DNA of 64,000 nt from Psammoneis japonica (taxonomy: Eukaryota), in contig QPGO01000002.1 in the NCBI GenBank assembly GCA_008632985.1, forward strand, positions 620,001-684,000, written 5' to 3'. The notes under the pieces were generated by a model that did not search any database, was not told the DNA's origin, and worked only from the letters and a program-made list of their open reading frames with translations. Positions 26,240 to 60,029 of this stretch are shown here, piece after piece (the first letter of the stretch is position 1; every line of letters begins with the position of its first letter). The position numbers and the translations under genes are program-made.

Positions 26240-28200
26240 TTCTTGTGATGGTGTTGTTCGCTTTTGCTGTTTGTTGTTGCCGTTCTCCAGTTCATGGTTC
26301 ATGTCATCGTCGATCGTCGAAAGGCGTGTGAGAGTGACGCACAAACACACAGGGAGTTGCATGAAATGTCAAAATTTTCATTTTTCCCTGCAAAAACGCA
26401 CAGAATGTCAGAGAGACCTGCCTGCACGTGAGTGCCGCCACAGTCTGCACGATGCTGCGAAAGTTTGTGCACTTGCCACCAAAACGCTGCTCGCACTTTT
26501 TGCCAGGGGACATGCCACAGACACACAATGTTGCATTTGGCTGCAGGACAAATCCTGTGTTTTTGGGGCTCTGTTTGATTTGACAAAATGTCGAAATTCC
26601 ATGGAAGGTTTCTCAACAATTGCCTTTTTTCCCAACCAGTGCTGAGACAAAATGCCCCCAGAAATGCAGGTGGTTGTGTCTTCACCAGACCCCGCCAAAA
26701 TTTCTCGTTGAGAAGACAACCCACTGGATGGAATGAGAATGTTTAAATGATGTTGCACAGTGCGTGAAAAATGACAACCTGCACTCACTCAATTGGGTTG
26801 GCATGGTGACATCAAGCACTGAAATGAACGACAAAACGGTGCGACAATCGATGATGACGACACCTTCTATCGGTGCCTGCCTGTGCGCTCATTTTCCACT
26901 GCACTCAAATTTGTACATCCACACATACATCATAAGCAGTTGCCATGAGCACATCACGTTGTCGGTCACGGCGTTTCTGCACGCATGATGATGCGCATGG
27001 CACCGCACGACTGCAAGAGACGCCGTTGAGTTCCCTTCTCGATCCCGAACTCCGATTTGAACCAGTCACGACTGTCTCAACCTCATCGCTTCGTGCGATG
27101 GTACAATTTCAAATTCAAACCCGCCAAATAGCTCCAACCGCCAAAACCAAAAAAGGCCTCTTGGGGGGGACTGGGGCTGGAGACTATTTTGGATTGTTGT
27201 CGTTCAAGATTCCCTTGCATGCCGTTCCAAAAGCGTTCCAAAAGCGTTCCAAAAGCGTTCCGAGAACGTTCTCATGTGCACTAATTCACGCGGAAATCAA
27301 ACTTTGGAGCCGGTCAATTCGCCAATGAGACATGTGATGCATTGCAATCAGTGCACTGTTGTTAGAACCATTTGAGTGTGGCACAACAGTGTAAAAGTTT
27401 AACAGATTATATGGATTTATTGCAAAAAGGTGCACCCGTCAAAACAGGTTTCTATTTTCTCTAAGAAAAAGAACGGCTGGCAGAAGTCTCAACAATTTTG
27501 AGTTGCAGTGGCTGTGAGTTGAACTGCGAGGGTGTGTTGTAACTGCCAGTGTTGTTTGACAACAAACCACATCTACAACAACCGCCAACAGCTCCAACAC
27601 GGAAATGCCATTCGACGAAATGGGCATTTCGTCATTCCCGTGTTTCCACCGTTCCGGGACCGCACCAAAAGCGTTCCGAAACCGCACCAAAAGCGTTCCC
27701 GAAGGGAATCTCTCTAAAAGGCCTAACATCAAAACATTGTTTTTAGACGTTGGAAACGAATGAGAACCCTGCCCGATGATGCATGGAACCATCAATCCAC
27801 CTGCGGCAACAAAAACACTGCTGTGTGGCAACAGCGCGGCATCAATCATTTTAGCACAGTGCAAAATGTCAAATGCGCAACACACGACTGCACTGCTCAC
27901 CATGCAAATGCGCCTGCCCAGAGCCACAGTAGATTGTCTTGCAAGGACAGTCATTCAGAGGCAGACAAGATCGGAATGGATTTGGAACCAATGGGTTCGC
28001 GTCACACTTGAGCACTTTGCAGGACACACAGCAGTGTGCGAGTTGTGGGGCCTTCTTCAAGATGAAGGCAACCTTTCTCATGGGTTCCTGCCCACTCACT
28101 TGTTGTGTGCCCTTGTTTTCTGAATCTGCATTGTTCTGAAACCATTTTGCCGGGAATCTGTGGTGGAGCACACGAAGACACGACAAGAAAATGGTTTTGT
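26240..28200. mobile_element. TpA-depleted domain 3 with short internal repeats (repeat/TE relic)
   Basis: TA is rare and CpG partly retained. An 11-bp unit ccaaaagcgtt is repeated at 27223-27261 and again at 27650-27700. Confidence 0.6.
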
Positions 28201-28715
28201 GTCGGAGTGGAGTTAATTGTAAATCTGGACTTGTTGCGTACCATCATTCCAATCTCTTTTTGAAAATCAACGTACTGGCATTAGCTTCACCATCTTATCA
28301 TCTTAGATTGACTGGTAACACAGGTTTATGGATGATAATGGCATGCACGGTGACGGTGGACGGCACTGACTTTCGCTTCGCATCAACGAACCATCGCCGC
28401 GTTCGCCGTTCGACCCCATCTTCTATCTGGTGTCTGGTGTTCGCATAGCCCAAAATGCAACGTTTTAGGGGATGTGTAAAATGAATTATCGTCACGAAAA
28501 AACACGAAAAACCACGAAAAACAGGGAAAAACGAAAATTTCGACATTTCATGCAACTCCCAGACAAAATTTGGCGCATGCGTCATCCCACCTTTTATTTT
28601 CGCGCGGGAAAAGATGACGTGAGATTTCCCACCGACATCACGACCAAAAGCAACAGCATCTTTCTCGTTGATGCGGCTGGATAGGCAAAAGGAGGCAGAC
28701 AATTGGCAATTGACA

Positions 28716-31762: not shown

Positions 31763-32992
31763 TTACCGGTCAGACTCTTGCCGCCGCACCACTTTGCTCT
31801 CATTTAGGCTATTCATTGCTTTCGAAATCTCTGCAGTTTTTTTATTTTCCGCACTGTGAACATCGTCCTTATTCTCGTCAATATCAATTCTCAGAGCGTT
31901 GGTGTGTCTCAATTCATTGTACAGGTAATAGGCAAAGCCACTCGTGGAGTGGATGACAGCGTCGCACCGCCTGACCAAACGAAAAATGGAGAGAATAACA
32001 ATCACTTCCAGTTTTGGATTATTGGATGGCGTTTGGTTTTCAAAACCACCTTGTGAACCTCGATGTCGCGGTCGATCCAAGTAGACCCACTTGAATTCCG
32101 GGAATTGTGATGTCGCTTCATCAATGGCATTCTGATCATCCGTCAAGAGGAAAATGGAGCGGTTCGATAAGGAATGGTTGTGCTCCTGGGCTGCGTCGAC
32201 GTATTCTTGAATGGCATGGTATTTACGCGCTTGACCCCTTGGATGCAACACCACGTCGCTTCTGCGAACATGAATGGCTGTACAAGGCGAAGTCAAGTTC
32301 ACCGTTTTGGAGTACTCGTAGATGGCTCGTCTCAACCAGGTCTGAGGACGGGACGCATATTCGTAAGCCCACGCTGCTCGCAAGTTAACAATATGAGCGA
32401 CTTCCTTGGAAGCTAGTCCGTGAATAATCCTTTCTTTTTTAGGTTCTTTTGGAACAACGCATGCGGAGATTGGAAGGAAAAAGCAACTCATGTCTTTTTT
32501 CGGACACACCGGATGGTCCCCCTTTTTTGTTGCTGCGTAGTGCCAATGTCTCTTTTTGTATATATCCACGGGCTCATTGCTCTCGAGAGCATACAGTAGA
32601 CCATCAACGACGTTGAAGTAATCCGCTCCCCATCCTGACGACCACAACTGCTTGAAAGTCATGTTTTGGCAGTTTCCCTCAAACTGGACCTTGTACAAGT
32701 CACGAAAAAATGTAGCTTTTTCTGTATTATCCATGCGAGAAAAACAATAATGCGTATCGTTTTCATAAGAAGCGGACCAGTCAGCATTATGAGTCCACCA
32801 ACAGTCTAAATTGACGTCCCATTCGACACAGAACGACGAGTTGTTGTGGGCGACATTACAGACTGCGTGTTGAGGATCGAGGTATGGAGCTGTATACTCT
32901 GATACTGTAATTCTTATGCCGTTGAGTTGAACCAGAAACAGAATTCCAGCTAGAATCGATGCGGTACGAATAGCGCATCGTATCGAAACCAT
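31763..32992 (-). CDS. Alpha-1,6-fucosyltransferase-like (GT23-type) membrane protein, paralogue 1
   Basis: N-terminal anchor, SSGWGAD, AIHVRRSD, IFLLTDD, HSTSGF. Confidence 0.75.
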   Translation of the reverse strand: MVSIRCAIRTASILAGILFLVQLNGIRITVSEYTAPYLDPQHAVCNVAHNNSSFCVEWDVNLDCWWTHNADWSASYENDTHYCFSRMDNTEKATFFRDLYKVQFEGNCQNMTFKQLWSSGWGADYFNVVDGLLYALESNEPVDIYKKRHWHYAATKKGDHPVCPKKDMSCFFLPISACVVPKEPKKERIIHGLASKEVAHIVNLRAAWAYEYASRPQTWLRRAIYEYSKTVNLTSPCTAIHVRRSDVVLHPRGQARKYHAIQEYVDAAQEHNHSLSNRSIFLLTDDQNAIDEATSQFPEFKWVYLDRPRHRGSQGGFENQTPSNNPKLEVIVILSIFRLVRRCDAVIHSTSGFAYYLYNELRHTNALRIDIDENKDDVHSAENKKTAEISKAMNSLNESKVVRRQESDR

Positions 32993-33440
32993 TGTCGAGG
33001 GCCCACTGGAGATTTGCCTATCGCTCTCCCATTTTCAATCTCCTCATCTCTCCCGCACCTCGCATTTTATTACTTCGTGTAGGCCCTAGGAACCTATCAC
33101 GATGCTGTGTGCCTACAACGACGGATTTCATCGATTTTGGGGTTGAACTTGTGAAAACGGAGATAAACGACAGAAACCCAAAATTGAAAATCACCAAAAC
33201 GCCCGGCCGAGACCTCTGAGCGAGACACCAGAACAAAAAAAAGATACGGTAGCAGATAGTCGTACGGTAGCTGGTAGTGGAAGTGAAGCTACTTGCTAAT
33301 CTAGAGACAGGCCTGACAATGGGTGTTGTCGGATCAACCGTCAAGACATGTATTGAATGCTATAGGTTAAGAATAGCTATCAGGGACAGGAGAAAGGACA
33401 AGATGGATATGCTTGACATTTGAAGACGAACCATGCGCTG

Positions 33441-34640
33441 TTAATTCGGCGTGGTGGCATTTATGGAATTGTTGAAACTGCGCACGCCTTCTTTCCCGTT
33501 GTCAATATTGATTTGCATAGAGTCGCTCATATAGTGCCAGATGTAGCTGGCAAAGTTACTGGTAGAGTGAATGAGTGTATCACATTTTTGAACCAGACGA
33601 AAAATGGATAGCATGACGATCACCTCCAGTTTCGGATCCTTGGATGGGGTCTGGTTTTCCCATCCTCCTTCAGTGCCACGATGGCGTGGTCTATCCAAAT
33701 AGACCCACTTATAATCAGGATATCGAGAATGTGCTTCTTCGATTGCATTTTGATCGTCGGTCAGCAGAAAAATGCTTCGATCATTTCTGTGTAAAGAACG
33801 ATTTCGTTCCGTAGCTGCCTCAATGTACTCTTGAATCTCGTGGTACTTTCGTGAAAACTTGCCGTGCAGGACCACATCAGCTCGACGGACATGAATGGCC
33901 GCACACGGTGAGGGTAGATTTACGGAATTGGTGGAGTATTCATAAACGGCGCGTCTCAACCAGGTTTGTGGGCGGGTAGCATACTCGTATACCCAGCCCG
34001 CCATGGGCTGCTGAATACGCGGGGAATGATTTTTCGCAAGAAGATCATTCACCACTTTCTCTCTAGGAATATCATCTGGTACCTCACAAGATGATATATT
34101 CAGAAAGTAACATGACATATCCTTTCTCGGGCACACCGGGTTGCTACCATCCTGTTTGTTTGCCGCATAATGCCAGTGCTGTATGTCATGCAATTCTACA
34201 GGTTGCTTCGTTTCGAAGGCAAAGAGAAGTCCATCGTTCACATTTAAAAAGTCAGCTCCCCACCCCGACGACCACATCTGTTTGATTACAAGTGTAGAAC
34301 AGTTCCCGTTGTGTTGAATGTCGTGCAGTTCCCGCATGAAACTTGCTTTGGCTTCGTCTTCCATGGGCGATAAGCAATAGTGCGTGTCGTTCTCCAACGA
34401 TACAAACCAGTCAGGATTGCTGGTCCACCAGCCATCAATGTTCTTTTCCCACTCTACACAGAAAGCCGTTGTTTGATTTCCTTTTGGCATTTGATTGATG
34501 ATGGCGGAAAATTCACGGTCGCCACTGGATGCAAAGACTGCAAAGATGTGACGCGCTCTCGTGTTGATAAGAGTCGAAAGACTGATCACAACGACAACAG
34601 CAGCTATCAAGATTGCTGTCTTTGGTGATGATAATGGCAT
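33441..34640 (-). CDS. Alpha-1,6-fucosyltransferase-like protein, paralogue 2
   Basis: Same motifs (AIHVRRAD, IFLLTDD, HSTSNF). The likely start MPLSSPK precedes a TM helix. Confidence 0.75.
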   Translation of the reverse strand: MPLSSPKTAILIAAVVVVISLSTLINTRARHIFAVFASSGDREFSAIINQMPKGNQTTAFCVEWEKNIDGWWTSNPDWFVSLENDTHYCLSPMEDEAKASFMRELHDIQHNGNCSTLVIKQMWSSGWGADFLNVNDGLLFAFETKQPVELHDIQHWHYAANKQDGSNPVCPRKDMSCYFLNISSCEVPDDIPREKVVNDLLAKNHSPRIQQPMAGWVYEYATRPQTWLRRAVYEYSTNSVNLPSPCAAIHVRRADVVLHGKFSRKYHEIQEYIEAATERNRSLHRNDRSIFLLTDDQNAIEEAHSRYPDYKWVYLDRPRHRGTEGGWENQTPSKDPKLEVIVMLSIFRLVQKCDTLIHSTSNFASYIWHYMSDSMQINIDNGKEGVRSFNNSINATTPN

Positions 34641-35147
34641 GATGATGAATGGAAGGTACAGTTGGTATGCGGTGGATGCGGGTTTTGCCTGTTGCGCCTG
34701 TTGCGTGTGTTTGCTTGAGCGCCCCCCGATGATGAGGGGTGCGGTGCTGATGCCTGCCGTGATGGCGGCTCTAGACTCTATGTAGAGTGAAGCAACGATA
34801 ACAACGCGTTTATGTGAAACCACATGTTTGAAGGCTTTCATAATTGGCCACATCTATGTCTTCGAATGTTTTGATGTATTGTAAGAAGAAACGACAACGG
34901 CAATTGTTTGGATCGCGGAATATAATTTAGCTACAGAACTTATAAATAAAAAATTCAAGGCGAATCACGTTTGGAAGATCATTGTCACATTCAGAGATGA
35001 TGAAATGAATAAATGACCCGTGGGTCAATCGCTCACAAAATCGTAACACCGCGAAACAATGATGACTGACTCCGTTGTTGTGAATCGTACCATTGCACCT
35101 CAAAGAACGTAATATGGTTTTTCAAAAGCCATTTGAGAACAATAAAT

Positions 35148-36344
35148 ATGAAAACTTCCTTGCGCCACACTCTGATCATGTTAATCACGTTAAATGTCAT
35201 CCCTGTGGTGAGATTGATAAGATTGATGCGGCTTCATACCAATACCGAGTTCAAGGAGGAAACGGAAATGATGGAACCTGCTGAGAGAGTCACAACCAAG
35301 CCGGTTGTTAATGACACGCCTTCAATATGTGCATCATGGGACCAAAACATGGATAAGTGGTGGGGCAGCCACCCTGATTGGAGTCTGACGTTTGAAAATG
35401 ACACGCACTACTGTTTTGCTCCGATGGAAGACAAGGCCAAGGCAAAGTTCTTTCGAAGACTGCATGACGTCCAGCAAAATGGAAACTGCTCTAGACTGAT
35501 TGTAAAAGAAATGTGGTCCTCGGGATGGGGTGCAGATTTTGGTAACGTAAACGATGCCCTTCTTTTTGCGCTCGAGTCGAAATTTCCAGTCCAGATGCAT
35601 ACATTGAACCAATGGCATTATGCAGCAAACAAAAAGGATGGCAGCCGACCCGTATGCCCTAGAAAAGATCTGTCATGCTATTTCCTAAACATTTCTGCTT
35701 GCGAGGTACCAGCTGATATCCATATTACCAGAGAAAATTTTGTCAACGGAATGATTGCGAGGAAGCGCTCTTTCTATTTCAGGAGACGTAAAGCAAGATG
35801 GGCATACGAATATGCTACCCGGCAGCAAACATGGCTTCGACGTGCTGTTTACGAGTACTCTGCCAAAATCAAACTGTCGTCACCATGTGCTGCGATGCAT
35901 GTGCGTAGAAGCGATGTTGCGTTACACGGCAATTGGTCAAGGAAGTATCACGAGATTCAAGAATACGTTGATGCTGCCGCGCAACACAACCTTTCTTTAC
36001 ACAATCGATCCATCTTTCTTCTGACAGACGATCAAAATGCCGTCGATGAAGCAATATCGCAATTTCCGTACTACAAGTGGGTTTATCTTGATAGACCGCG
36101 TCACCGTGGTGCCGAGGGAGGGTGGGAAAACCAAATCCCTTCCAACGATCCGAAACAGGAGGTTCTAGCGATTCTTGCGACGTTTCGTCTTGTCCAACAA
36201 TGCGATGCGCTCATCCACTCCACCAGTAGCTTTTCTCATTTTCTCTGGCACTACATGAAAGATCCTGTGCGCATCAACCTTGATCTAGGAAAAGAAGACG
36301 AGGTTGTGTACAACTCAAAGTATTCCAAAAAGCGGCCAACCTAA
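35148..36344 (+). CDS. Alpha-1,6-fucosyltransferase-like protein, paralogue 3
   Basis: Same motifs (AMHVRRSD, IFLLTDD, HSTSSF). Confidence 0.75.
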   Translation: MKTSLRHTLIMLITLNVIPVVRLIRLMRLHTNTEFKEETEMMEPAERVTTKPVVNDTPSICASWDQNMDKWWGSHPDWSLTFENDTHYCFAPMEDKAKAKFFRRLHDVQQNGNCSRLIVKEMWSSGWGADFGNVNDALLFALESKFPVQMHTLNQWHYAANKKDGSRPVCPRKDLSCYFLNISACEVPADIHITRENFVNGMIARKRSFYFRRRKARWAYEYATRQQTWLRRAVYEYSAKIKLSSPCAAMHVRRSDVALHGNWSRKYHEIQEYVDAAAQHNLSLHNRSIFLLTDDQNAVDEAISQFPYYKWVYLDRPRHRGAEGGWENQIPSNDPKQEVLAILATFRLVQQCDALIHSTSSFSHFLWHYMKDPVRINLDLGKEDEVVYNSKYSKKRPT

Positions 36345-38708: not shown

Positions 38709-39882
38709 GCTGATTTTGGGTGGTGTGGGAACGATAGTATTGTCATTGCAACGGGTTCACACACTGTACTTGTCAAAACAACGGCACACCCAGAAACTCG
38801 CCAATCATGGCTCCGCGCCTCTCATGCTTTTTTTTTTTGCGGCGAGAACTAGAGAAAAGATGTTTTGACGTTTTTCCCCCTAAATCTGACGAAACCATGA
38901 CGGTCAGACTTCCACGTAGGATTTGTACAGCATTCTACGCAATGCGATCAACATTCAACATGGACCATGACGGCGGCGGATGCGTGCTGTCGTTTGTGCT
39001 TTGATGCTGAAAGTTTGATGCGTTGTCGTCATTACACGCTAGCTGCAGCGTGCCAATGTCATCGCATGTCGAAAGCACAGTGAAACTCGCAAAGATAGTG
39101 CACACGCTCTGAATGTCAAGACAGAAACAACGACAGCAATTTTTTCTCAGAAGAGAGCTCAAGACGAACTGTTTTTGAGCCCAGGCAGTTGCAACAAGTT
39201 CTAGAGAGAGATTCCGGCGCAGCTCTTTTTCTTCGACAATCCCAAAGATTTAAATTCCATTACATCCATCAGCTCGGTGAATGTTTCTGCAGAGCGTTTG
39301 GAAAATGCAAAAGACGAGGTCCGACACAATCACAAAAGAGCCTCATGGATGGAGCGGATTTGCGCGTGGCAGGTTTTGAGCACGAGAACTCTTGATCCCG
39401 CTTTCTGCAGTCATTGGCAGCAACATTGATGAAAGGTTTATCTTTTCATTAGGGTGCTCGATGTTGTATTGTTGTTTGATCCCTTGTTGGACATCGAGGT
39501 GTGGACAGTCAGTGTCGACACAGCAGGTGCACATGGTGGTCTCGCGTCAAAATAGACGGGAAAAAAGCGCTCTTTAGCACAATGGTACGAAGGGTCGACA
39601 AGCTTTCCATTTGTTTACTCCTAAATAGCTTGGAATCATTAGCTGATTGCGATGATCCCGAATAAGTTGGACTTGGGCATTGCGGCGATAAGTCGTAGCG
39701 ACATGGCGACGGCCAGTCGCCCAATTGTGAATCATTCGACACGACTCCAATTTGCGAACCCTTCAAAACGCGAAGCGCATCGGCGGTGGCCACGGCGCGT
39801 GGACACTCTCCTTGCGGCACGACTGTTATTGTCACGATACACAGTAATACCAATCAAAAATCCAAGAAATGCATTTGGACCT

Positions 39883-42145
39883 ATGAGCAACATGAAGCCA
39901 GCCTTGTTATTAAAGGATAGACAAAAAAGCAGCAAACCCTTTGTGTCTATCAATCCCTTCGAGCCTCGACCGGGGCATTATCTGTCTTGGAACGGTGTTG
40001 ACGTGAAGGTTTCACGCCGGCAAAAGCACCAGCATGACACATTGCACATTCTTTGTAACCTTTCAGGGGTGACAAAACCTAGCGAGCTTACTTGTATCAT
40101 GGGGGAGAGTGGCTCAGGCAAGACAACGCTGCTAGACTTCTTGGCGGGGAGGCTCGCATCATCCGTCAGCAAGAGGGGTATGGATGTCAAAGGAGATATT
40201 TACATGGATGGTGAGAAGATCGATCCAACATCAATAGCTTTCCAGAGAAAGGTAGCCTACACGGAACAGCATGATAACATATTTGCCACTGCAACTCCCC
40301 GCGAAGCCATCTACTTTGCTGCAAGGTTGAGACTTTCTCGTACGATAGGTGACGAGGACATTGCCGTACTGACGGACTCGATTCTCGACGAACTGCATCT
40401 GTCCGAAGTGGCTGACTCACTCATTGGAGGAGATCACCTCAGAGGATTGAGTGGAGGAGAGAAACGCCGTGTCGCGTTAGGTGTTCAGCTGGTTATCCGT
40501 CCCAGTATGCTACTCCTGGACGAGGTGACGTCTGGTCTTGATAGTAAAAATGCCGCTTCAGTGATCATGTCCTGTAAGAAAGTAGCGGAAAGTGGCGCCA
40601 CAGTCATCATGGTGATCCATCAGCCGAGCAGCGATATATTCAGTATGATGGACAAACTTATCCTACTGGAACGAGGACGCTGCATGTACAATGGGGCAAC
40701 CTCGGACGTTCCTGCATATTTTGAACTTAGAGGTTTCCCCGTCCCGGCTCACTACAATCCTGCAGATTGGATTATCAAGGTGCAGCTCGAGATTGAAGCA
40801 TCAGGCTACCTTTCCGTTCAATTAGGAAGTGACGACAATACTGCTGTATCAATGACAAGAAGAACTGGGAGCTCAAGTGACACTGAAGAGTTTCAGCGCG
40901 TCTCTCTTTGGAAGGAGACAGCCGAACAGGTCCGTCGAGACACCAAGAATCTTACTCGAGACGGCATGGGTCTGCTGATCCGATTTGGGACACTTACTGC
41001 CGGATCGGCGCTTCTTGCAATAGCGTACGCAGGTGTCGGGTCGGACTCTCTGGATAGTGTGTTGAGTTTCTCTTCCCATGTTGGAGCACTCTTTCTGGTT
41101 CTTGTTAGCAGCCTCATCATTCTGCAGCTCACGATCGTGGACTTCAGCTTGGTTCGCGAAGTGTATGTCAAAGAGCTGAAGACCGACCACTATCGTATTT
41201 TCTCACGTACGTCAAACTCTCATCGCTTTCTCTTTCTTGTACAATCTCTCGTCTAACGATTCTTTCTATCCACTTTCTCCTTCAGTCGGTCTCACGAAGA
41301 CTTTGTACGAGGCATGGTCGACCTTTTTGCAATGCCTTATGGTTATGCTTGTCATATATTGGAGCTTAGATCTCAATGGACGGTTCTGGTACTTACTTCT
41401 CGTCCTTTATGCTGTTACTATGGCGAACCTGTCTTCCGCCATTGCTGCAGGTTGTGTGACGTCGGTAAGTGAACCGCATGAGGCTGTCAGAATCAGATGA
41501 AAATTGCTTTCCATGTCAAAACTAAACGATTTCTTGCATGTAAGTTAGAACCCCGCAGATGCCAAGGAGCTAATGCCGATGGTCCTTTTTCCCCAGCTTC
41601 TCTTTTCCGGCTTTTTCGTCAACATTGAAGATATGCCAAAATGGATAGCGTGGATGCAGTACTTGATGCCTATGACCTATGCTTTCCGGCTCGCCATTGC
41701 CGAGGAGTTTGCCGATTGTTTTGACGTCGGTTCCGTCTTTTGTATCGAATACCTTGAGTCACAGGATGCAACTGGCTCCGAGGACGCGGAATACTGGATG
41801 GCCTTGCTAATCTTATTCGCAGGAGTCCGGTGCCTGGCCTTTTGTTGCTGCGTCGCCGCGCAAGGTGCAGCAAGATCTTGGGGCACTTCAACAAATGGAG
41901 ACAATAAAAAAATAGTAAGCAAGCCGAGGCAAACATGCAAGAATGAAACGAACTGTTATTTTCCTCGTAGGATGAAAGATATAGAAAGAAGTAAGAAACG
42001 TCCTATGGCGCGCTATACGACTCCCGCTCTTTTTGTTTGCTACGTTGTGCCAATTGCTACACGTATGCATTTGCACTGGTCGCTTACTTTTGAGGACATG
42101 GAGACCGTCATCAACGTTTCGAAAGTCACTTCCCCATCCTTATGA
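39883..42145 (+). CDS. ABCG (White-type) half transporter (introns 41207-41285, 41465-41548; 3' end uncertain)
   Basis: Walker A GESGSGKT, LSGGEKRR, LLLDEVTSGLDS, IHQPS, NPADW, and an ABC2 membrane domain (PQLLFSGFF, W..W..Y). Confidence 0.9.
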
Positions 42146-42599
42146 CCACATCTCCTTTACGATCATGCTTGAATGGTTTCCGTTGTGTAGAATGTTATGC
42201 AGTTCCCTGGGGGAAAAGAAATTTGCGTTGGTCTCGTTTTTCCATGGGCTCGGGCTCCGACGACACAATTCCAGTCAGGATAGCTCGTCCACCATGCATC
42301 CATGTGTTTTTGTTCCACTCAAAACAGGCAATTGATTTATTGATGATGACAGACAGTTCAGAGCAGTCATTGGATTCATGCAGCAGGTGTGCCGCCGCAT
42401 GCTGTCATGTTGTCATGTTGATGAGGGTCGAAAGACTGATGATTCGTTCGGGCAACAATGGCAGTTGTCAGTGCACTGCAGTTTCTGGTGGCCAGAACGG
42501 CGTGACGGTGAGTTGCTCATTGGACAATGCTTGTGAAGACACGTTTGGCAAGAGCAACAGGTGACACAAGCTGCTGTGACATCCAGAGAGTGGAGGGAT

Positions 42600-43240
42600 G
42601 GAAGTGTTGTCCCCCCAACAGCAGCAGACTTGAGCTTCCAAACTCCAGAGTGAAACGACCCTGTGATGGCACCAACCAACCTGACAACTGCAAACTGAGG
42701 GCACTGGTGGTGTCTGGTGGACCCCAGGCAACACTTTGAGAACTGTGGTTGAGCATTGCAAGGTCTGTCTTGTGGTGTTGTGGCCCCATGTCACCTCATC
42801 TCCAACTGCACAGTGGGAGCAGACTTCTTGACTTTCCCAACTCCAGAGTGCAGGGACCCCATGTGGAACCAACCAACCTGACAGCAGCAAGAACAAGGGC
42901 ATTGGTGGTCTCTGGTGAGCTCTTGACACTTTGGCAACTGTGGTTGGATCATGCAAGGTTGATGTTGTGGTGTTGTGGCCCCATGTCACCTTGTCCCCAA
43001 CAGGAGAAGACCAAAAGAATGCCTTGCAGTGAAAGGCTCCCATGATGGCACCAACCAACCTGACAGCTGCAAGCTGAAGGTGTTGGTGGTCTTTGGTGGG
43101 CCCCAGGTGCAACTTCAAGAGCTGTTGTTGTGCATTGCAAGGTTGATCTTGGGGCATTGTGGGCCCATGATGTTGTCTTGTCCCTCGTCTCCAACAGCAG
43201 CAGACTTGAGCTTCCAATCTTGAGAGTCAAAGGATCTTGT
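42600..43240. repeat. Tandem array of about 190-200 bp units (about 3 copies)
   Basis: Recurring gcagactt..ccaaactccagagtg..catgatggcaccaaccaacctgaca..ccccagg..cattgcaagg..gccccatgtcacc. Confidence 0.85.
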
Positions 43241-43344
43241 GACAGCGCCAGTCAACAACTGTGTGCTCCGAAGATGCCAAGACAAGAAAATGTGACAGCA
43301 CTTTTCTCAAGAGCTTGAGACCAGTTGTTTGGCAGTTGCAGCGA

Positions 43345-44135
43345 ACCAAAAATCCAAGAAGCGCGCCTTTTAGCTTGGTGCCATCATGGCCACGCTGCAA
43401 GAAAAGCCAGCAGGGGCTTTTTGCTGTCAAAGGACAAAAGAGACAAAAGGGCAACACAAACCCTTTTTGTGTCTGCCAGCCCCTTTGAGCCTTGACTGCT
43501 GGGGCAGCACCATCTGTCTTGAGAGTGACGGTGTTGACAAACAGATTTCACACTGGCAAAAGCACCAGCACCAAACATTGCACACACGTTCTTTGCAGTC
43601 TTTCAGGGTCAGGAGGAGGGGCAACACCCAGCAAGCTCTTGCTTGTGTCATGGAAGAGAGTGGCCCAGAGAGACAAGACAATGCTGCCTGGCTTGTCAGC
43701 AGGGCCACACTCCCACATCATCCACTGCAAGAGAAGTGCGGACATCTGGAGAGACACCATTTGTGCAAATGGTGAGAAGATCAACCCAAAATGCAGCAGC
43801 GCTTTCCAAAGAAAGGCAGCCTGCACCATGGAACAGCATGACAACATGCTTGCCACTCCTGCCCCAATCCCCACAAAGCCACTTGCTTTGCAGCAAAGTT
43901 GAGACTTTCCTGCACAACAGGTGATGACAAGAATGTTGCCAAACTGGCAGATTTGATGCTTGATGTGAGCTGCACAATCTGCCTGAAGTGGCTGACTTGC
44001 TCATTGGGGGGGAGACCAAACCTCAGAGGATTGAGAGGAGGAGAGAAACACTGCACCACATCAGGTGCATGGCTGGCTGTCTGCTCCAACATGCTCCTCC
44101 TTCTAGATGAGGTGATGTCTCTGGTCTTGACAGTG
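43345..44135 (+). pseudogene. Hypermutated partial copy of the ABCG gene (matches about 39853-40545)
   Basis: Shared anchors: aaaaatccaagaa, ggcaaaagcaccagca, ggtgagaagatc, ggaacagcatga, gttgagacttt, cctcagaggattgag, tctggtcttga. It has many frameshifts. Confidence 0.9.
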
Positions 44136-45599
44136 CAGCACATCTGGAACCAAGAGGCTGCACATGCAGCAGAACAACCATGGATGTTCTTGAACATTTT
44201 GAGTGGAGAGGTTTCCCTGCCCCAGCTCACTGCAGTCCACAGCTGCTCTCATTTGGAACTGAAAGTTGCTGAACAAGAAGCCTGTGTTCTTGTCAAGTGC
44301 TCATTCATGGTGAACAAATGGATTTCAATGATCAACCAAATTGGCAAAGCAGGAAACCAGACTCAAGGAAATTTGGTCTCTCACAGCACATGGGCTCTTG
44401 AAAAGATTTGTTTTGAACCAGGCCACAGCACAACAACCACGAAGGTTGGGACATCAATGGTCAACAAGTTGGCAAAGTGAAAAACCACAATGAATGCAAC
44501 ACATGGCTCATTTCTGTGCACCCACACCCACAAGTTGATCCAACCAATTGTTGTTGTTTGTTGGGACTGTGGAGTGTGTCAACAATTTGAAAGTTCTTCA
44601 TTCATCAGTTGGCTTGCATTTTGCACCTTTGGTTTCCAACAATGTTTGCTTTCTGCTCATGCAATGTTTGACAACATTTGGCACATGCTCTCATGCTCTC
44701 ACTCCATTCTGTCATTTCATTGCCTTTGCTCCAACTGTTCTTCAAGCTGCCACCCCATTGTCTGCTGCCCCGTTGTCTCTTGGCTGCAGTTTGTCTTGCA
44801 TCTTGGTGTTCTTGGCTGTGCTGGCACTGGGCAGTGTTCCAATCTTTTGTGTTTCAAAGAGAGTCAATTTTTGTGACAGATTTTCATTGCAGGATGTGAC
44901 AGCAAAATCCCTGCCAGAAGACAACAGAGAAGTTGTTGGAGGTTGGCATGTTTTCTTTGGCAAGTGTGATGGCACAATGCTGCTGTTTTTGCCCACCTGT
45001 GTGCAGTGTTGAAGCGCACTTTGTTTCTCATCCTTGGCTGTTTTTGTCAACTTGTCTGAGGTTCAAGAAATGAAAAAGCACAAAAGGAAAAGCTGCCTGC
45101 TCCTGCATCACTCTTTTGACTTGTTGCCCCCCTTGTCACTCTTGTTGCCTTTCCCAAAGCATTTTTTGTTGGCATGTGCAGAGTCTTGGTGGATGCTGCT
45201 GGCATCTTCCTTCGATGTTGTCATTGTTCGTGTGCTGCTTGGGTGCATCCTGTGTTTTGTGCTCTTTTGTGTGGCAGTGATGTGCATTTTTGGTGCTGTG
45301 CTGAGCCAGTTGGCCTGGCAATCATTGCTTGCATCATTTGCAAGTTGTCAATTTTTTTGCTTTTTGTTGCAGCATTCATTTCAAAGTTTTGTGTTGTTTG
45401 AATCAACTTCAGTGAGTCATTTTGTTGGCATGCATTGCCAACACATTTTGCTTGTGAGTTTTCTTTCATTTTGCAGCTTTGCATGTTGAGTGGTCTTTCA
45501 ATCAGATGCAGTGCACCTGTTTTCAAAGAAGGTTTGTGTCTCAGTTTTTGTGATCTCAGTTGGCTCTCTCATCAAAAATGAATTTTCACATGTGTGCAT

Positions 45600-46620
45600 G
45601 GCAGTGCCAACAACCAACCCAATGAGCAATGGCAGAGGACATTGGTGGTCTCCTCTGGCAGGCCCCAGGCAACACTTTGAGAACTGTGGCTGGGTGTTGC
45701 AGGTTGACCTTGTGGCCTGGTGTTGTGGCTCCAAATTGCTCTGTGTCCAACAGCAACAGAAATGACCCCATGACAGCACCAATCAACTTGACAACAGCAA
45801 GCAGACCGAGGGCACTGGTGGTGCATCTGGCAGACCCCAGGCAAGAACACTTTTAGAGCTGTGGCTCTGAGCATTGCAAGGCTGATGTTGTGACCCTGGC
45901 CCGTGTCACTTTGTCCTCCCCAACAGGAGCAGACTTGAGCCTCCAAACTCCGGAGTGAAAGGAGCCCATGATGGCACCAACCAATCCACAACTGCCAGCC
46001 AGCAAAGAACACTTTTGGTTTTTCATGGCCCCAGGTGACACTTCAAGAACAGTGACTGGACATTGCAAGGACTGTCTTGTGGCATTGTGGCCCCATGTCA
46101 CCTTGTCCTCCTGCCTCAACTGGAGCAGACTTGAACTTCCAAACTCCAGAGCAAAAGGATCCCATGATGGCACCAACTGGCCTGGCAACTTCCAGCAGAT
46201 GATGCTGTTGGGCCCCAGGTGACACTTTGAGAACTGCTGTGGCTGGAGATTGCAAGGTTCATCTTGTGGCACTGTGACCCCATGTCACCTTGTCCCTGGC
46301 TGGAGCAGACTTGAATGTCTTCCCAACTCCAGAGTGAGAGGATCCCATGGTGGCACCAGCCAACAACCCAACGTCAGTGTCTGGTGCTCCCCAGGTGCAA
46401 CCTTGAGAACTGTGGTTGAGCATTGCAAGGTTGGTCTTGTGGCATTGTGTGGACCCAAGTCTCCTCACTCTGAACAGCATTGGCAGATTTGCCTTCCCAG
46501 CTCTAGAGTGCAGGGGTTCCCAATGACAGCAGTGCCAAGTGCCAACCAACCCAACAACTGCCAGCAGAGGACACTCGCTGGTGGCCTCTGGTGGCCCCAG
46601 GCAACAGACTTGTTCCAGAC
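45600..46620. repeat. Second array of the same 190-200 bp unit (about 5 copies)
   Basis: Same anchors as 42600-43240, in the same orientation. Confidence 0.85.
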
Positions 46621-47926
46621 TCAGGTGAGCACACATGTGAAAAAATGCCCATTTTTGCATGAAAAGCACTGTCCAAACTTTCAGTGCTGCCATTTCAACA
46701 TTTGTGTTGTTGTGAGTGGCGCAAATGATCCCATGCATGCATGTGCCCATGCATTCAAAGCTGATAATGGGCCAAGTTGATGATTGTTGGGTGGCACCAC
46801 AAGATGAGAGCTTGGTTTTCCAATGAGCAATTCATGATCACAGTCATGTGCAAATGAAAACACACAAAGCAAACATTCTCATGTGCAAATTTGCTCTTGA
46901 ATGGGCAATGAATTGCACTTTGTTTTTGCACATCAACACAAGTTGCTCTGAACAGATTGAACAAAACATTTGTTGATGACACAGTGCAAGAAGACATGAG
47001 AAGCAATGAAACTCTGCCCACACAATGGTGTGTTGACTTCAAACCCTTTTTCACTGCTTTGTCAACATGACAAACAACTGAAACACTTGCTTCAGTTGAG
47101 GCCATGGAGGGAGTGCACATGGCAATGGAAAAGAGCTTGTCCTTGGAGGCAAACTGTCAATGAAATGAGGCTCACTTGTTGTTGCTGACAGGTCAGTCTT
47201 CTTGTGCTGTGCTGCAGCCTGTGCCAACAATTGTCTTCATTGTCGTCATCAATGACACAGACTGTGTGAAATGCTGTGGTCATGATTGTCGTGTCATTCA
47301 ATTTCCCACAAGGTTGAAGAAAGTGGGCTGTCATGGTCACTTGAAGCCAAGGCTGTTTTGGTGATCAGTTGGCTTGAATTTCATTGACTCATTTGATCCA
47401 TGAACATGACAACTCTAACAAGGTGTCAATGAAGTTGAATGAAAAGCACAAAACAGTTGTTTTTTGTTTAAAAAGGCATGTTTTTCCCACCCCAACAAGG
47501 GGGGAATGGGGGCTGTGCAGCCAATGCCTTGCTGTGGCCAAAGTTGTGAGAGGCATCAACAAAAAATGACTTTGACAAGCTGTGCACAAATCCAGGTGCA
47601 AAACATGTGCCCTTTGACATCCCCACAATTGCTTGCATGAGGGTGCAAATGTGCCACACTTCACAAAAGTCCACTTTTTTGACTTGTGCATGAAGACACA
47701 TGACAGTCATTGTGACAACTTTTTTCTGGTCTGTTGAACTCCTTTTTCTCTGTCAGGCATGATCGGCAGTTCCAAGAACTTTTGCTCGGTGTTTGAATTT
47801 TGAGTCCGAGCTTCCCAAACACATTCCTGTTGTGCACGCCACCATTGCAGGATGCCAATTTGCAAGGAGCACCACGGTTTTGCAGGATGCCGATTTGCAG
47901 GACGCACCACGGTTGGAAATTGCTGT

Positions 47927-48390
47927 GGCCTCTTGGCCCCAATGCAATGACGGACATTGAGCTCCAACATTTGCGCAACACCTTGCCAGATGTGGCTGTC
48001 ATTCAGCAGATCAAAGAGCATCTCTGGCTCTTGGAAACATCATTGCAACCAATGCACATGGCTCTTGTTCATCCTGATGTAGACCGAGAGACAGAAGATG
48101 TGATTTTGGATGTTTTGGGTGCAGAAGTCTTTCAACAGACAGTTGGTGGGCAAGCGCTTGTGGGGAGTTGTTCAAAATTTTCAAACCAAGGCGGCATGGT
48201 GCATCCTCAAACAACTGTGGAAGACATTGAAAAGCTTGGTTCACTGTTGCAGGCACCACTTGCAGCAGGAACTGTAAATCGTGGGTCAGATGTGTTGGGT
48301 GGAGGCATGGTGGTCAATGATTGGTCTGCTTTTGTGGGGTTGGACACTGCCAGAACAGAAATTTCTGTCATTGAGAGCATCTTCAAGCTT
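47927..48390 (+). pseudogene. EIF6: 5'-truncated, hypermutated eIF6 gene fragment
   Basis: [64 protein letters not shown]. There are compensating frameshifts in the SALGN segment. Confidence 0.9.
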
Positions 48391-50430
48391 TTGGGACAGA
48401 GGACAACAGCGCCAACAATTGAGCATTGTTTCAAATGTGAGGAGCTCTCTGATCGATCAGCTTTCGCAAGTGACGAACACGGTGATGCAAAAAGAGCACT
48501 TTAGAATGATCAAAAACACTGAGTTTAAGTGCAGTTTTGCAGCACCAAATTGCACTTCACAACCATGCATCAATTGATGCAACCATTCAAACTGAGGCCC
48601 TTTCAACAGAGAGCAGTGCCAAGCCTTCATCCAGAGAGCAGTGCAGATGTTGTTGAGGAGCAGGAACTGACTGACTTTTTTGCTCCCCCCATTGAGCTGC
48701 ACACCATGATCACAGCTGCAAAAAGGAACTCTGGAGAGGAGTTTAAACTGTGATGTTGTCAGTTTTCTTCTTGTGGTTTCTGGCTTTTACTTCATCGCAG
48801 CTTTTTGGAGCCTGTCTGGTGAGCACTGGCATGCAGTGACTCATTCCCTCAGCAATCTCTTTTGTCCAATCTCACTTCATGCTGCATGCTCAAAAATTGC
48901 TCCAGACATTTCCAGTGCTTCATCGTTGGTCTTCTCAGTCACCTCACACCATTTGACAAGAGCAACAATGCAGCATTTTGAATTGCATCACCCCGGCTTG
49001 AGCAGGACCTCTCTGACTTGGAATCACTGTTCACCTGCTCGTGTTCGTTGTCAAGAATCTGCGTCTTGTTAAAGACCAAATCAAGAACTCTCTCAATCCA
49101 CTGCTTGATGGAGATTGTGCCTTCTTCAGCCCCCACACCAAAATTCTGTCCCATGACTTGATTGAAGGCGAGTTCGCAGCATTCATTCATTGTGTTGAAA
49201 ATCTTCTTTTGCCACACTCGTCCTTAAATTCGTTGTTGGTCAGCTTCCGTCCACTCGATTCCCTGAGTGCCGCTTGGAGCACGAGTGTGGTGACAGTCTC
49301 TTGGTTGCTCTTGTTGCCATCAACCTCACACTGCAGAGAGAATGGTGTGACGTGATCTCAGATGTTGACTTCAAAGTGGCTTCGAACGCCCTTTGCCCCG
49401 CCAAGTTCAACAACAATGTGTGACTTCCATGTCCAGGTCGCCACTGAAAAGCGGGAGAGTTCTTGTGCCCACAATGTGCTGCAGCCCAATCTCAACGTCA
49501 TCCACATCTTCACTGACCAGGCGTTGCAGAACTGCAAGGAGAAGTGGCTTGACCATGACTTCGGCGACTCTGCTTGATTGTCAACTGGCGACGGTCCTCA
49601 TTCTTGATGGCCTCATGCACACCTGCTGCCTTTGCAATGTCCACAACCAAGAGAAAAAAATTAGCAAATGAATCATCCCAATCCCTGCCAGTGCAATCTC
49701 GCGGTGCCCACCATTGAGATTTTGAGACAGTTTCCGGCCCTTTCGCTTTCCTTTGAACTTGGCTGTTTTTGGCTCTTTTTTGCTTCCTGTGCCTTCGTTG
49801 AGTTTCTTGTGGAAACAAATGGTCTTCATTCAGCTGGCTAAAATCAGTTGCATTGCAGAGTCCTGCTTTTGCTTTTCTCTCCTGTGCCAACGGCGCCAGT
49901 TTGTCTCGGCTTCTGTGCGCCTGTTTTTGTTGTCGTCGCTTTTCTCTTTTCTGCAGTCGTCTTCAGTGTTTGCACCTGGCTGCTGGGGCCCTCTGCTCTA
50001 GAGCAGCCACTCTCTGTTCTCTCTCCAGGTGCCAGCGTGGGGCAGAAAGGAGTTTGTTTCTACCGCAAGCTGCCGAAGAGCACACCTGAGACCCAACAGC
50101 TGAAACAGCGCGTGATCCCAGCGTGATCAACGCACGTTACCGGTAAAATTCTTTGAAAAACTGATTCCATCCAATGGTGGCGATGTGTATCAACTAAACA
50201 GAGCTTATTCGCCACCAACTTTTCTGCTCAAGACTGAACATAAAATATATTCAAGCATGAATACAAATGAAATGGTTGAAACGTCACGGTGTATCTTCTT
50301 CGTGTCAAGATCCGAAGGCAAAAAGAACAAAGAAGCCCAACAAGTTGAATGAGTGCGGCATCTCTTGTTGGTGCTACGAACAATTCGACGCTTGGATCAC
50401 ATAAAGAATCTGTTGAGAGGTCTGGGTAGT

Positions 50431-54509: not shown

Positions 54510-55751
54510 TCATATTAATGGAGTTTCAGTGCGATATGAACTAGGCCGACCTCGCACGAGGACACAGCATGTGCTACTTGCAATATTGCACAAGTCGCTT
54601 ACTCTGTTCATCAGAATCGGAGCTTTAGGAGATGTCCAAATCTTATATGTACTTACTAACCTGGGGTTCTTAAGGGGTTCGTGCATTTTAACCCACTTCT
54701 GGAACCATGAAGCAGGCTCAAAGTTTTTGGGAAGTTTATCTTTCCAAGCACTAAAGATCACGTCCTTCAATGTGAATCGTGAATACTCGTTGATCAGTTC
54801 CATCGTGTCGGTGCTCGCGAATTCACTGTCAAGCAATCTATCGTGCAATTCGTCAGGAAAGTGCAAAGCTTGTTTCACCAACGCTTCGGTCTTTTTCGGT
54901 TTGGCTTGCAATTTGGATTCGGTCCGTCTCATCTCGTCTTCCAATTCGCTGATTTTGCGTTTCTGACGTGCATTCCTTCTCCTCATTTCCACTCCAGCAT
55001 AGAAAAGATGTGAAATAATATCACCACCGTTTGCAAACAGAGCTTCAACGTTGGTATCGCGGCGAGTCTCTGGCAACAAGAGGAACTTGACCGACCCCCA
55101 AATTCTCGATTTCGCAACGGCTTCTTTCTTCAGCAATGGAACCATCTTTGAGATTAAGTCCAAATCAAACAAATCTGGGAAAAGGCTAAGCAATTCTGCC
55201 AATTTGCGGAAAGCGACTCTTCGCGTGTTTGGGAGATTGTACAAGTCGCTTGAAGCTAGGCTGGAAGCAAATGTTTGGAAAATCCGACGATTTGCTTCCT
55301 TATGTGACACCACTGGTGAACGTTTAGCCCCAATGGGCGGAGGCTGGGTATTGTACTTGATAGACCTCAGATAGGTAGCAAGGACTTTGTCACATTCGTC
55401 CAACATAGTCTTCATTTGGAATTCGTGAAACCACGGAATCAGAACTTCAACATTGTCGCTTGTGATCTTTGCCGCGCCCGCCGTCTCGGGATTAATGAAG
55501 GAATAAAAGAGCTTCCACTCCTCGGGGTCCTTGTCGGGGAAGGCAATCCTCGATTCTTCGCTCTCCTTCATACCGCTGGCGAGCATCGTGTCAAAGTATT
55601 CGCTGGCATAACTCAAGACTACTTTGTAACACGGAAATTCGGTGGCATCTTTTCCGACAACAACCACAACGTCGGGATCCTGGATACGGAGCCGTTTTGC
55701 CGGTGGAGGATTACCTGTTTGATCGTCTGTGTTGGGATTCTCTGTGTCCAT
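54510..55751 (-). CDS. BTB/POZ domain protein
   Basis: PDVVVVVG..EFPCYKVVLSYASEYFDTMLASGMKES..I.FPDKDPEEW..F. Confidence 0.85.
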   Translation of the reverse strand: MDTENPNTDDQTGNPPPAKRLRIQDPDVVVVVGKDATEFPCYKVVLSYASEYFDTMLASGMKESEESRIAFPDKDPEEWKLFYSFINPETAGAAKITSDNVEVLIPWFHEFQMKTMLDECDKVLATYLRSIKYNTQPPPIGAKRSPVVSHKEANRRIFQTFASSLASSDLYNLPNTRRVAFRKLAELLSLFPDLFDLDLISKMVPLLKKEAVAKSRIWGSVKFLLLPETRRDTNVEALFANGGDIISHLFYAGVEMRRRNARQKRKISELEDEMRRTESKLQAKPKKTEALVKQALHFPDELHDRLLDSEFASTDTMELINEYSRFTLKDVIFSAWKDKLPKNFEPASWFQKWVKMHEPLKNPRLVSTYKIWTSPKAPILMNRVSDLCNIASSTCCVLVRGRPSSYRTETPLI

Positions 55752-56101
55752 GTTGCGTTTAACGATGGGGAGAGTAATGACAGCGACGAAGACTTTGCCA
55801 TGTCGCTCTTCAGAAATACTGTAGATCTTCGCAACGGCAAGCAACAACTGAAAAAATCTTTTGTGCGATCTTTACAAGCCTGTCCGCCCGCCCCTCCCCT
55901 CGGCCCTTGGGTGCAAGTGCAGTGAGTGTTAGCGCGACTGGATGATTCTGTTCGCGAACACGACTGAAGAATCCGTCCGTCCTTCGCTTCGTACGTACCA
56001 GTTCCACAAAAATCGGCCATGAGCCATGACCCATTGAACATCATCTGAAGGCAGCGGCTACTCTAGAGAGAGCTCACAGTATGGAATGCCGAACAATAGC
56101 G

Positions 56102-58035: not shown

Positions 58036-58771
58036 AGAGGTATCCAAATTCCATCAGATTCAATCCATACATTGCCACAGATGCTGCACTGTTAAACTCG
58101 CCTCAAAGACTTCCGTTTGGCGACCACTACAGTAGCTCGACCATTTCTCCATGGTATGACCAATGCTTAGGATGAAGCTAATCGGCTACGCGAGAGGGCC
58201 GACCGATTGACGCAGTTTGTGCAATGACAAGGTTTAGCCTACAAGCATCCTTAAAATACTTCGGATCTATAGTGCTGGTCTAGTTTCCCATCGAGTTTTG
58301 GAATCGTCACTATGAGAAACATTGTTCCGTCGGTCGACTTCCTAAATCATGCTTATCACTGCACTTTGCTACAATCCAAAACTCGCGTTCGAGATGGAGA
58401 TAGCTCTCGAGAGACTGGCAGGGCATGCGACAAACAGAAATTGTTGTGAGAGCCATTGGAGCCAGTGGCACCGAAAGTGTGTCGCTGTTGATTTTTTTGC
58501 TGAAAGTTGCTTCTGAAAAGTTTATCGGAATTTCGTCGTCTGAACCAGGTCAGCGTTCTGAAATGCGGAGAAAACTTCCTGGAAGACTCGTCATTTAGAC
58601 TCTGGGAAGGTCGCACTAGATTCAAGTGTTTCTCCCATGGCCCGTGGAACTACAGCAACGTGTAATTTATGTTAATTGCTTCTCTCGGATAAGCGGGATG
58701 TGGAGGAAAGAGTTTTTGGGTTGCAATGTATGGCACAAGGGTGATTTCTCGATATTAGAGTGTTACCGGTA

Positions 58772-59788: not shown

Positions 59789-59834
59789 CGTGAAATCCGT
59801 GGGAAGCCTCCTGTCAACTGGAGAGTTGTTGTGA

Positions 59835-60020
59835 CAATTTGAGAGAGCTGCTTCGAAGAATCGCACCGAAACCAAAGAACAATCGTGTCACCCTCAGATT
59901 TTGACGCGACTCACCCTTCCACGCGCAGGCACTGAACAATTTGAGAGAGCGGCTTCGAATTACACTAAAACCAAAGAACAATCGTGTCACCTTGAGGTTT
60001 TGACGCGACTCCTCGCCTTT
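59835..60020. repeat. Two tandem copies of a unit of about 100 bp
   Basis: acaatttgagagagc.gcttcgaa..aaaccaaagaacaatcgtgtcacc..ttttgacgcgactc occurs twice. Confidence 0.85.
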
Positions 60021-60029
60021 TCCTGCAGA

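What the first reader, a model, noticed from the sequence alone, without database searches (positions are those of the whole stretch)
39853..44135. Only one member of each duplicate pair is hit: location, not homology, selects targets
The ABCG gene, MITE copy B, the first BTB gene and three fucosyltransferase-like paralogues keep TA and CG, while copies inside or next to the depleted domains are mutated. Established: RIP usually mutates both linked copies. Inference: targeting follows a chromatin domain rather than homologous pairing. Selection could preserve intact genes but would not explain MITE copy B.
Basis: inference. Interest (0 to 1): 0.7.

Follow-up and report, generated by a model that had tools for sequence, protein, structure and literature searches.

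The report
Neighbourhood decides TA erasure in diatom
In this diatom, a little-known process rewrites TA steps to TG or CA, and whether a piece of inserted DNA is rewritten depends on what lies beside it (ends next to ordinary gene-bearing DNA are spared, ends next to already rewritten DNA are hit) and on how long it has been there, not on having a matching copy.

Summary
The process is not RIP: the genome is a diatom's and the change is TA>CA/TG, then CG>TG/CA, as in a 2026 Bigelowiella preprint. This scan has noted the TA erasure, and edge effects, many times elsewhere in this genome. New here are controls for age and homology. Of 39 near-identical MITE copies only 2 are hit; both have two TA-depleted flanks. 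In a 1.5-kb TIR family, loss of TA at each end follows the flank at that end (rho 0.90, 14 copies; 0 of 200 permutations); both ends share age and copy number. DNA with no other match in the genome is also depleted. But location alone is not enough: fresh 2.2-kb inserts inside old domains are nearly untouched, and two copies between normal flanks are 60-82% hit in the interior. Best model: a cis field in which inserted DNA is mutated with time unless it lies within about 0.2-0.8 kb of gene-type DNA. A chromatin basis is inferred, not shown.

The parts
39883..41860 (+). Intact ABCG transporter gene (end approximate); keeps TA and CG
   Evidence: Pfam ABC_tran and ABC2_membrane; synonymous-TA fraction 0.34 versus 0.318 in control genes
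43346..44240 (+). Broken partial copy of the ABCG 5' part inside the old domain
   Evidence: 0 of 28 TA and 1 of 30 CG kept; 27 insertions, 2 deletions; 4.5% transversions
42250..50000 (.). Old TA+CG-depleted domain with TA-only halos at both edges
   Evidence: TA falls before CG at 42201-42600 and 49001-49800
41950..42620 (-). Old fucosyltransferase-like fragment crossing the domain edge; hit only on its inner half
42607..43259 (.). About 190-bp tandem repeat array, many dispersed relatives
44240..46610 (.). 1.36-kb dispersed repeat plus second 190-bp array; all 10 other copies fetched are TA/CG-depleted
47720..48465 (+). Frameshifted copy of part of eIF6; the intact parent lies on contig C32
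   Evidence: Pfam eIF-6; 0 of 26 TA and 10 of 36 CG kept
31766..36341 (.). Three intact FUT8-like paralogues (two on -, one on +), unhit
54513..55760 (-). BTB gene 1, unhit
58675..59760 (-). BTB gene 2, split between two ORFs; excess TA loss only at its 5' end (59400-59760)
59400..62000 (.). Young domain: TA depleted, CG largely kept; includes 59770-60518, which has no other match in the genome
   Evidence: 5 TA in 749 bases, obs/exp 0.12
60520..60818 (+). MITE A with both target-site TAs mutated (TG left, CA right); 10 of 14 TA hit, no other change from its subfamily; an empty-site form exists
61117..62625 (+). F2, a 1.5-kb TIR element with AT at both ends; hit 8/11 in its left eighth, 0/12 in its right eighth
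62625..62935 (-). MITE B, youngest subfamily, abutting the spared right end of F2; unhit
26352..28560 (+). F3, a 2.2-kb TIR element between two genes; 59 of 98 TA hit, right end 0/10, flanks normal
15705..16445 (+). F4, a 740-bp TIR element; nearly unhit except its left terminus
14950..15700 (.). Small depleted island with no other match in the genome
   Evidence: 1 TA in 751 bases; no hit but itself for this part
1..5400 (.). Old depleted domain ending about 200 bases before the MCM gene
   Evidence: content not analysed

Best explanation
A TpA-specific A:T>G:C mutator (TA>TG or CA; shown) acts according to a local field along the chromosome that ignores element boundaries and copy number (shown). 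Inserted or non-genic DNA collects hits with time, at least about 30 times faster than other substitutions (shown for MITE A and F3), with slower CpG decay in the same copies (shown). A zone of roughly 0.2-0.8 kb next to TA-normal, mostly gene-bearing DNA is protected (shown as a fit; that genes cause it is inferred), with a smaller boost next to already depleted DNA. So one normal flank spares a whole 300-bp MITE, a 1.5-kb element is polarised, and a 2.2-kb element between genes is hit in its middle. The field is most likely a silent-versus-active chromatin boundary, CG methylation marking the silent side (inferred from the co-occurring CpG loss and from P. tricornutum), and the enzyme most likely a DNA adenine deaminase (proposed for Bigelowiella; untested here).
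For: F2: end asymmetry versus flank asymmetry rho 0.90, 14 copies with both ends among 25 loci, 12 of 14 same sign, the other two near zero; flanks not one shared sequence; flank term dLL 77, 0 of 200 permutations. With element-intrinsic end effects fitted, net effect of a normal flank is -5.5 to -7.3 logits and of a depleted flank +2.2 to +3.8 in F2 (0 of 150 permutations), same signs but weaker in F3 (0-1 of 150). Protection term alone fits better than invasion term alone: dLL 64-78 versus 33-64 (F2), 8-19 versus about 0 (F3). MITEs: 2 of 39 hit, both among the 3 with two depleted flanks (Fisher p 0.004, threshold chosen afterwards); a TA/CG-free pattern found no hidden set of mutated copies (57 TIR hits). 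MITE A was mutated in place: its two target-site TAs differ (TG, CA) and a joint 60520>60818 in runs X1 and X2 restores one TA. DNA without a second match is depleted. Pfam host-gene hits in 6 of 23 normal versus 0 of 24 depleted flanks (p 0.009). TA-hit fraction tracks private CpG transitions (rho 0.87). Intact paralogues show no synonymous TA deficit (0.323 versus 0.318).
Against: No chromatin, methylation or small-RNA data. The flank's TA level is itself a read-out of the same process, so the tests show spatial continuity, not cause. Overall F3 hit level (4-85%) is not explained by flanks (rho -0.27, p 0.30) nor demonstrably by a mutator-free clock (rho 0.34, p 0.19). MITE L006 has two depleted flanks and no hit. 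17 of 23 normal flanks gave no Pfam hit. F4 gives only modest support (rho 0.52, mixed subfamilies). Cut-and-paste copies can carry hits from an earlier site (not excluded for F3 L055 and L062). Searches score only 40 candidates and miss diverged copies, so 'no other match' is not proof of single copy. All old domain cores examined are repeats.
Confidence: 0.6

Rival explanations
1. Spreading only: a pre-existing silent domain invades whatever lies in or beside it, and nothing is hit elsewhere.
For: U-shaped profiles in F2 copies with two depleted flanks (L048, L051); positive net effect of a depleted flank; TA-only halos around TA+CG cores.
Against: F3 L055 (59/98) and L062 (80/98) are hit between normal flanks; L057 and L064 are 9% and 8% hit inside fully depleted domains; invasion term adds almost nothing in F3.
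Confidence: 0.15
2. Linked selection: the mutator hits tracts anywhere in or near inserts, and haplotypes whose tracts reach needed genes are purged, which leaves an apparent protected zone.
For: The domain enters the dispensable BTB2 5' end but stops before MCM and ABCG; MITE A's hits look like one burst (9 of 10 on one strand, P about 0.01 given context).
Against: No same-strand runs in 9 heavily hit F3 copies, so hits are mostly independent and neutral ones near genes should survive; synonymous TA is flat along MCM up to the domain edge.
Confidence: 0.1
3. Homology-triggered, RIP-like nucleation at closely linked repeats (190-bp arrays, inverted MITEs, internal repeats of F3) with leakage into single-copy flanks.
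For: Old cores are repeats; RIP leakage gradients are documented (PMC2973834 passages; 10.1101/344036 passages).
Against: 37 of 39 near-identical MITE copies and the partner MITE B are unhit; F2 carries closely linked direct repeats yet L049 is 0/44 over its right five eighths; change is A:T>G:C; the Bigelowiella target was single-copy.
Confidence: 0.08
4. Age only: unmutated copies are simply the newest insertions.
For: MITE B is nearly identical to several other copies; fresh F3 copies in old domains are spared; F3 hits correlate with other substitutions (rho 0.71).
Against: Cannot give opposite ends of one element 8/11 versus 0/12 or 0/11 versus 10/12; MITE A has no non-TA change from its subfamily and has an empty-site form, while siblings with such changes are unhit.
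Confidence: 0.05
5. Sequencing or assembly artefact at modified bases.
For: The assembly method is unknown; the matching runs are one study and may be the source sample.
Against: X1 contigs keep the depleted state (16 differences in 4288 bases); double hits TA>CG and copy-specific mixtures of CA and TG.
Confidence: 0.02

Closest known systems
TpA-restricted hypermutation of integrated viral DNA in Bigelowiella natans (bioRxiv 10.64898/2026.01.13.699255; read parts 1-3 of 5: abstract, results, discussion)
   Same: TA>TG/CA on both strands; regional; clusters of TpA-depleted, CpA+TpG-rich windows; its main target was single-copy; not active in all lines.
   Different: Here a diatom; targets are DNA transposons, gene fragments and intergenic DNA; near-complete erasure followed by CpG decay; a sub-kilobase, flank-dependent boundary is resolved, which the parts I read do not describe.
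Repeat-induced point mutation (RIP) with leakage: Neurospora DIM-2 pathway (10.1101/344036, passages) and Leptosphaeria maculans (PMC2973834, passages)
   Same: Dinucleotide-specific transitions concentrated in repeat-rich blocks; gradients into single-copy neighbours over about 1 kb.
   Different: RIP is C>T and creates TA; this removes TA. RIP needs pairing of repeats; here near-identical dispersed copies are mostly spared.
DNMT5-dependent CG methylation of transposons in Phaeodactylum tricornutum (PMC9998398, passages)
   Same: A diatom silent-chromatin mark on TEs that would explain the CG>TG/CA layer and supplies a candidate domain.
   Different: Explains no A:T>G:C change; methylation was not measured in G000.
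TadA/ADAT2-type adenine deaminases (target preference recalled, not from a call)
   Same: A>G with a strong 5' T requirement and preference TAC > TAT > TAG > TAA.
   Different: Natural substrate is tRNA; no enzyme was tied to the process here (9 deaminase-domain matches in the genome, not analysed).

Membership tests
Fungal RIP | C:G>T:A transitions, usually CpA>TpA | tested here: not met
   Polarised by 29 MITE copies and target sites: TA>CA/TG
Fungal RIP | Both or most copies of a sufficiently similar repeat are mutated | tested here: not met
   2 of 39 MITE copies hit; F3 copies 4-85%. MITEs (300 bp) may be under RIP's usual size threshold (recalled); F2 and F3 are not
Fungal RIP | Leakage gradient into single-copy flanks | tested here: inconclusive
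   Gradients exist but fit protection better than leakage
Fungal RIP | RID/DIM-2 dependence, premeiotic timing | not testable with these tools
   27 C5-methyltransferase matches in the genome, not classified
Bigelowiella-type TpA hypermutation | A>G / T>C almost only at TpA | tested here: met
   MITE A 10 TA changes, 0 others; F3 L055 59 of 98 TA hit, 2 other changes in 1801 sites
Bigelowiella-type TpA hypermutation | Regional, with TpA-depleted and CpA+TpG-rich blocks | tested here: met
Bigelowiella-type TpA hypermutation | Single-copy DNA can be a target | tested here: inconclusive
   59770-60518 and 14950-15700 are depleted and have no other match, but the search misses diverged copies and no ancestral sequence is known
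Bigelowiella-type TpA hypermutation | Rate about 1000-fold above background in mutation-accumulation lines | not testable with these tools
   Only a lower bound from copy comparisons
Bigelowiella-type TpA hypermutation | Targets of viral origin | not tested
   Targets examined here are TIR elements, gene fragments and intergenic DNA; no viral search was run
Chromatin-domain-guided mutation | Mutation boundary coincides with a methylation or histone boundary | not testable with these tools
   Indirect only: TA hits co-vary with CpG transitions (rho 0.87)

The most novel reading that the evidence does not exclude
A homology-independent, default DNA-editing defence in diatoms: an adenine deaminase rewrites TpA in any DNA lying more than a few hundred bases from active genes, so that genes define what is spared rather than repeats defining what is hit. 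It also removes the TA target sites and TA-containing ends that many DNA transposons need.
Probability: 0.35. Interest if true: 0.85.

Novelty: new variant of a known kind. Interest (0 to 1): 0.6.

Why it matters
The Bigelowiella preprint leaves open how targets are chosen. Here, families of young transposons give within-element controls showing that neighbourhood and time, not copy number, set the pattern, with a length scale (0.2-0.8 kb) that can be compared directly with methylation, histone and transcription maps in a lineage with working gene knockouts. If true it is a genome-defence logic opposite to RIP in both chemistry and targeting, and it biases repeat dating and annotation in such genomes, because divergence between copies reflects position as much as age.

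Tried and rejected
RIP reading: rejected on direction of change. Sub-lethal hits in the intact paralogues: none. Processive single-strand bursts as a rule: seen only for MITE A, no runs in 9 F3 copies. Shared mutated ancestor among heavily hit F3 copies: direction agreement mostly 47-68%, not near 100%. A mutator-free clock for F3: too few private changes to resolve age. Promoter-facing side as the hit side: not supported; long ORFs on spared flanks mostly point away from the element (12 of 15). Finding a nucleating repeat for the young domain at 59.4-62 kb: none found; the depleted flank of L049 matched low-copy DNA over its first 600 of 2156 bases only. Machinery: deaminase and methyltransferase searches gave candidates that I did not analyse. 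Expression: no RNA holder listed; X2 shows GT..AG joints but is contigs only, so no use was made of depth. The substitution tally of X2 was not used because positions were not shown. Literature: six full-text searches; none of the listed papers reports TpA erasure in a diatom, and the library lacks most subscription journals. A word search of earlier scan notes on spreading versus homology gave 0 hits. Rows dropped: truncated MITE L030; 13 of 30 F3 loci (older, truncated or redundant) left out of the 17-copy set, and 14 copies used in the fits; 11 of 25 F2 loci lacked two ends; 10 F2 copies in the fits; 15 of 30 F4 loci used. MITE L025 and L027 share flanks and are one insertion counted twice.
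Full report
Setting. The window is G000:C3:620001-684000 of a 91-Mb eukaryote genome. The named homologues of its pyruvate kinase are diatom proteins. Two old domains (1-5.4 kb and 42.25-50 kb) have almost no TA and little CG; a younger one at 59.4-62 kb has lost TA but kept most CG. At the edges of old domains TA falls before CG. Contigs of run X1 match five pieces of the old domain with 16 differences in 4288 bases, against 8 in 7523 in the gene block beside it; 30 of the 32 differences listed for 43.3-50.1 kb are transitions and 19 are CG versus CA/TG (159 further rows were not shown). This argues against an artefact, though the runs are one study and may be the source sample.

The four pairs. 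ABCG: the copy at 43346-44135 keeps 0 of 28 TA and 1 of 30 CG. It is old (4.5% transversions) and the parent is under selection, so it says little about pairing. BTB2 is hit only in its 5' 350 bases (5 versus 1); overall the count is 9 versus 9. The fucosyltransferase fragment is 65-67% identical to the genes and loses TA only on its domain side. The intact paralogues have the same synonymous-TA fraction as twelve control ORFs (0.323 versus 0.318).

The change is not RIP. Against 29 full-length copies of the MITE, copy A shows ten TA>CA/TG changes and no other change from its subfamily. RIP makes TA; this removes it. The match is the TpA hypermutation reported in Bigelowiella natans (bioRxiv 10.64898/2026.01.13.699255; parts 1-3 of 5 read; supplements not seen), whose main target was single-copy. 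In F3 the strand-specific rate runs TAC > TAT > TAG > TAA. Earlier notes of this scan report the erasure, the context and edge effects on other pieces of this genome; they are leads, not support. One of them (an end spared next to a host gene) prompted the protection model tested below.

Homology test. MITEs A and B are not a pair but members of two subfamilies. A pattern free of TA and CG found 57 terminal matches, all but two at copies already listed, so mutated copies were not hidden. With ten copies of a related 323-bp subfamily, 2 of 39 copies are hit (A with 10, L015 with 7). Both are among the three with two depleted flanks; none of 36 others is hit, including seven with one depleted flank (Fisher p 0.004, threshold set after seeing the data). 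A was mutated in place: its two target-site TAs read TG and CA, and contigs of X1 and X2 join 60520 to 60818, which restores a single TA (the tool marks the letters between as not known). DNA with no second match is depleted too: 5 TA in 749 bases at 59770-60518 and 1 in 751 at 14950-15700, with the caveat that the search misses diverged copies.

Age test. MITE B abuts the right end of F2, a 1.5-kb TIR element. In the window copy of F2 the left eighth is hit 8/11 and the right eighth 0/12. Other copies show the mirror image (L045: 0/11 and 10/12) or a U shape (L048, L051), according to which flank is depleted. Across 14 copies with both ends, end asymmetry follows flank asymmetry (rho 0.90; 12 of 14 same sign, the other two near zero). 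The flanks are not one shared sequence, and no permutation of flanks among ten copies reached the observed fit (0 of 200). F3 right ends agree (8/40 beside normal flanks, 30/40 beside depleted ones; sites not independent). F4 gives modest support (rho 0.52, 15 copies, mixed subfamilies).

Against the simple reading. Among 17 young F3 copies the hit fraction runs from 4% to 85% and does not follow the flanks (rho -0.27, p 0.30). L057 and L064 are TA-rich islands inside fully depleted domains: location needs time. L055 (this window) and L062 are 60% and 82% hit between normal flanks, with the right end relatively spared: a pre-existing domain is not needed, unless they were hit at an earlier site. 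The correlation with other substitutions (rho 0.71) falls to 0.34 (p 0.19) when only private changes that the mutator cannot make are counted, while private CpG transitions track TA hits closely (rho 0.87). Age and copy-specific silencing state cannot be separated here.

How it most likely works. Logistic fits with copy and context terms prefer protection by a TA-normal flank over invasion from a depleted flank (F2 dLL 64-78 versus 33-64; F3 8-19 versus about 0). With free end effects, a normal flank lowers the odds strongly and a depleted flank raises them less. The length scale is about 0.2-0.8 kb. Normal flanks are enriched for host genes (Pfam hits in 6 of 23 versus 0 of 24). One rule then covers all families: a 300-bp MITE is spared by one gene-type flank, a 1.5-kb element is polarised, and a 2.2-kb element between genes is hit in its middle. 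Shown: the spectrum, in-place mutation, continuity across element boundaries, insufficiency of homology, a role for time. Inferred: that the field is chromatin (CG methylation of diatom TEs by DNMT5, PMC9998398 passages), that genes cause the protection rather than linked selection, and that the enzyme is an adenine deaminase. The flank's TA level is a read-out of the same process, so cause is not shown. RIP also leaks into single-copy flanks, so gradients alone do not exclude a homology-based trigger for domain cores, all of which are repeats where examined.

Verdict. Observation partly confirmed; interpretation right in its core but incomplete. The mutation type has one precedent in print that I found (six searches) and many earlier notes in this scan; the controlled test of the targeting rule is the added value. 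New variant of a known kind; interest 0.6.

Noticed in passing
window:43346-44135: The ABCG copy has 27 small insertions and only 2 deletions against its parent, many looking like short tandem duplications; the eIF6 copy is 6 to 7. X1 shows only 3 gaps here, so they are not assembly errors. May point to error-prone repair in old domains.
   Followed up: partly
window:60520-60818: Empty-site form with intact TA in runs X1 and X2; whether the flanks of that form are less mutated could not be seen.
   Followed up: partly
window:60520-60818: 9 of 10 hits are T>C on the + strand (P about 0.01 given context), unlike F3 copies, which show no strand runs.
   Followed up: yes
window:26352-26800 and 15705-16035: The left part of F3 has almost no TA even in unhit copies, and young F4 copies have 10-13 TA where an older-type copy (L162) has 27: master elements seem to have been partly erased and then multiplied.
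   Followed up: partly
L043-L054: All 12 F2 copies fetched have at least one depleted flank; reason unknown (insertion preference or survival).
   Followed up: no
L044-L067 and MITE flanks: Long ORFs on spared flanks point away from the element in 12 of 15 cases: elements sit upstream of genes.
   Followed up: partly
   Followed up: partly
L196-L203 (G000): 27 matches to the C5 DNA methyltransferase family in the genome, several broken; a large set, not classified.
   Followed up: no
L187-L195 (G000): 9 matches to the dCMP/cytidine deaminase family; the pair on C41 recurs on C317.
   Followed up: no
window:23500-24400 and 11500-12500: Two TA-rich stretches (TA/AT up to 1.6) among genes.
   Followed up: no
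window:60011-60154: An X2 contig runs from 60011 straight into the CACT microsatellite, suggesting about 96 bases are absent or spliced in that form.
   Followed up: no
L048:3122-4468, L051:3012-4511, L015:2012-3307: ORFs of 430-500 codons without Pfam hits in depleted DNA: loss of TAA and TAG makes spurious long ORFs, a trap for annotation.
   Followed up: partly
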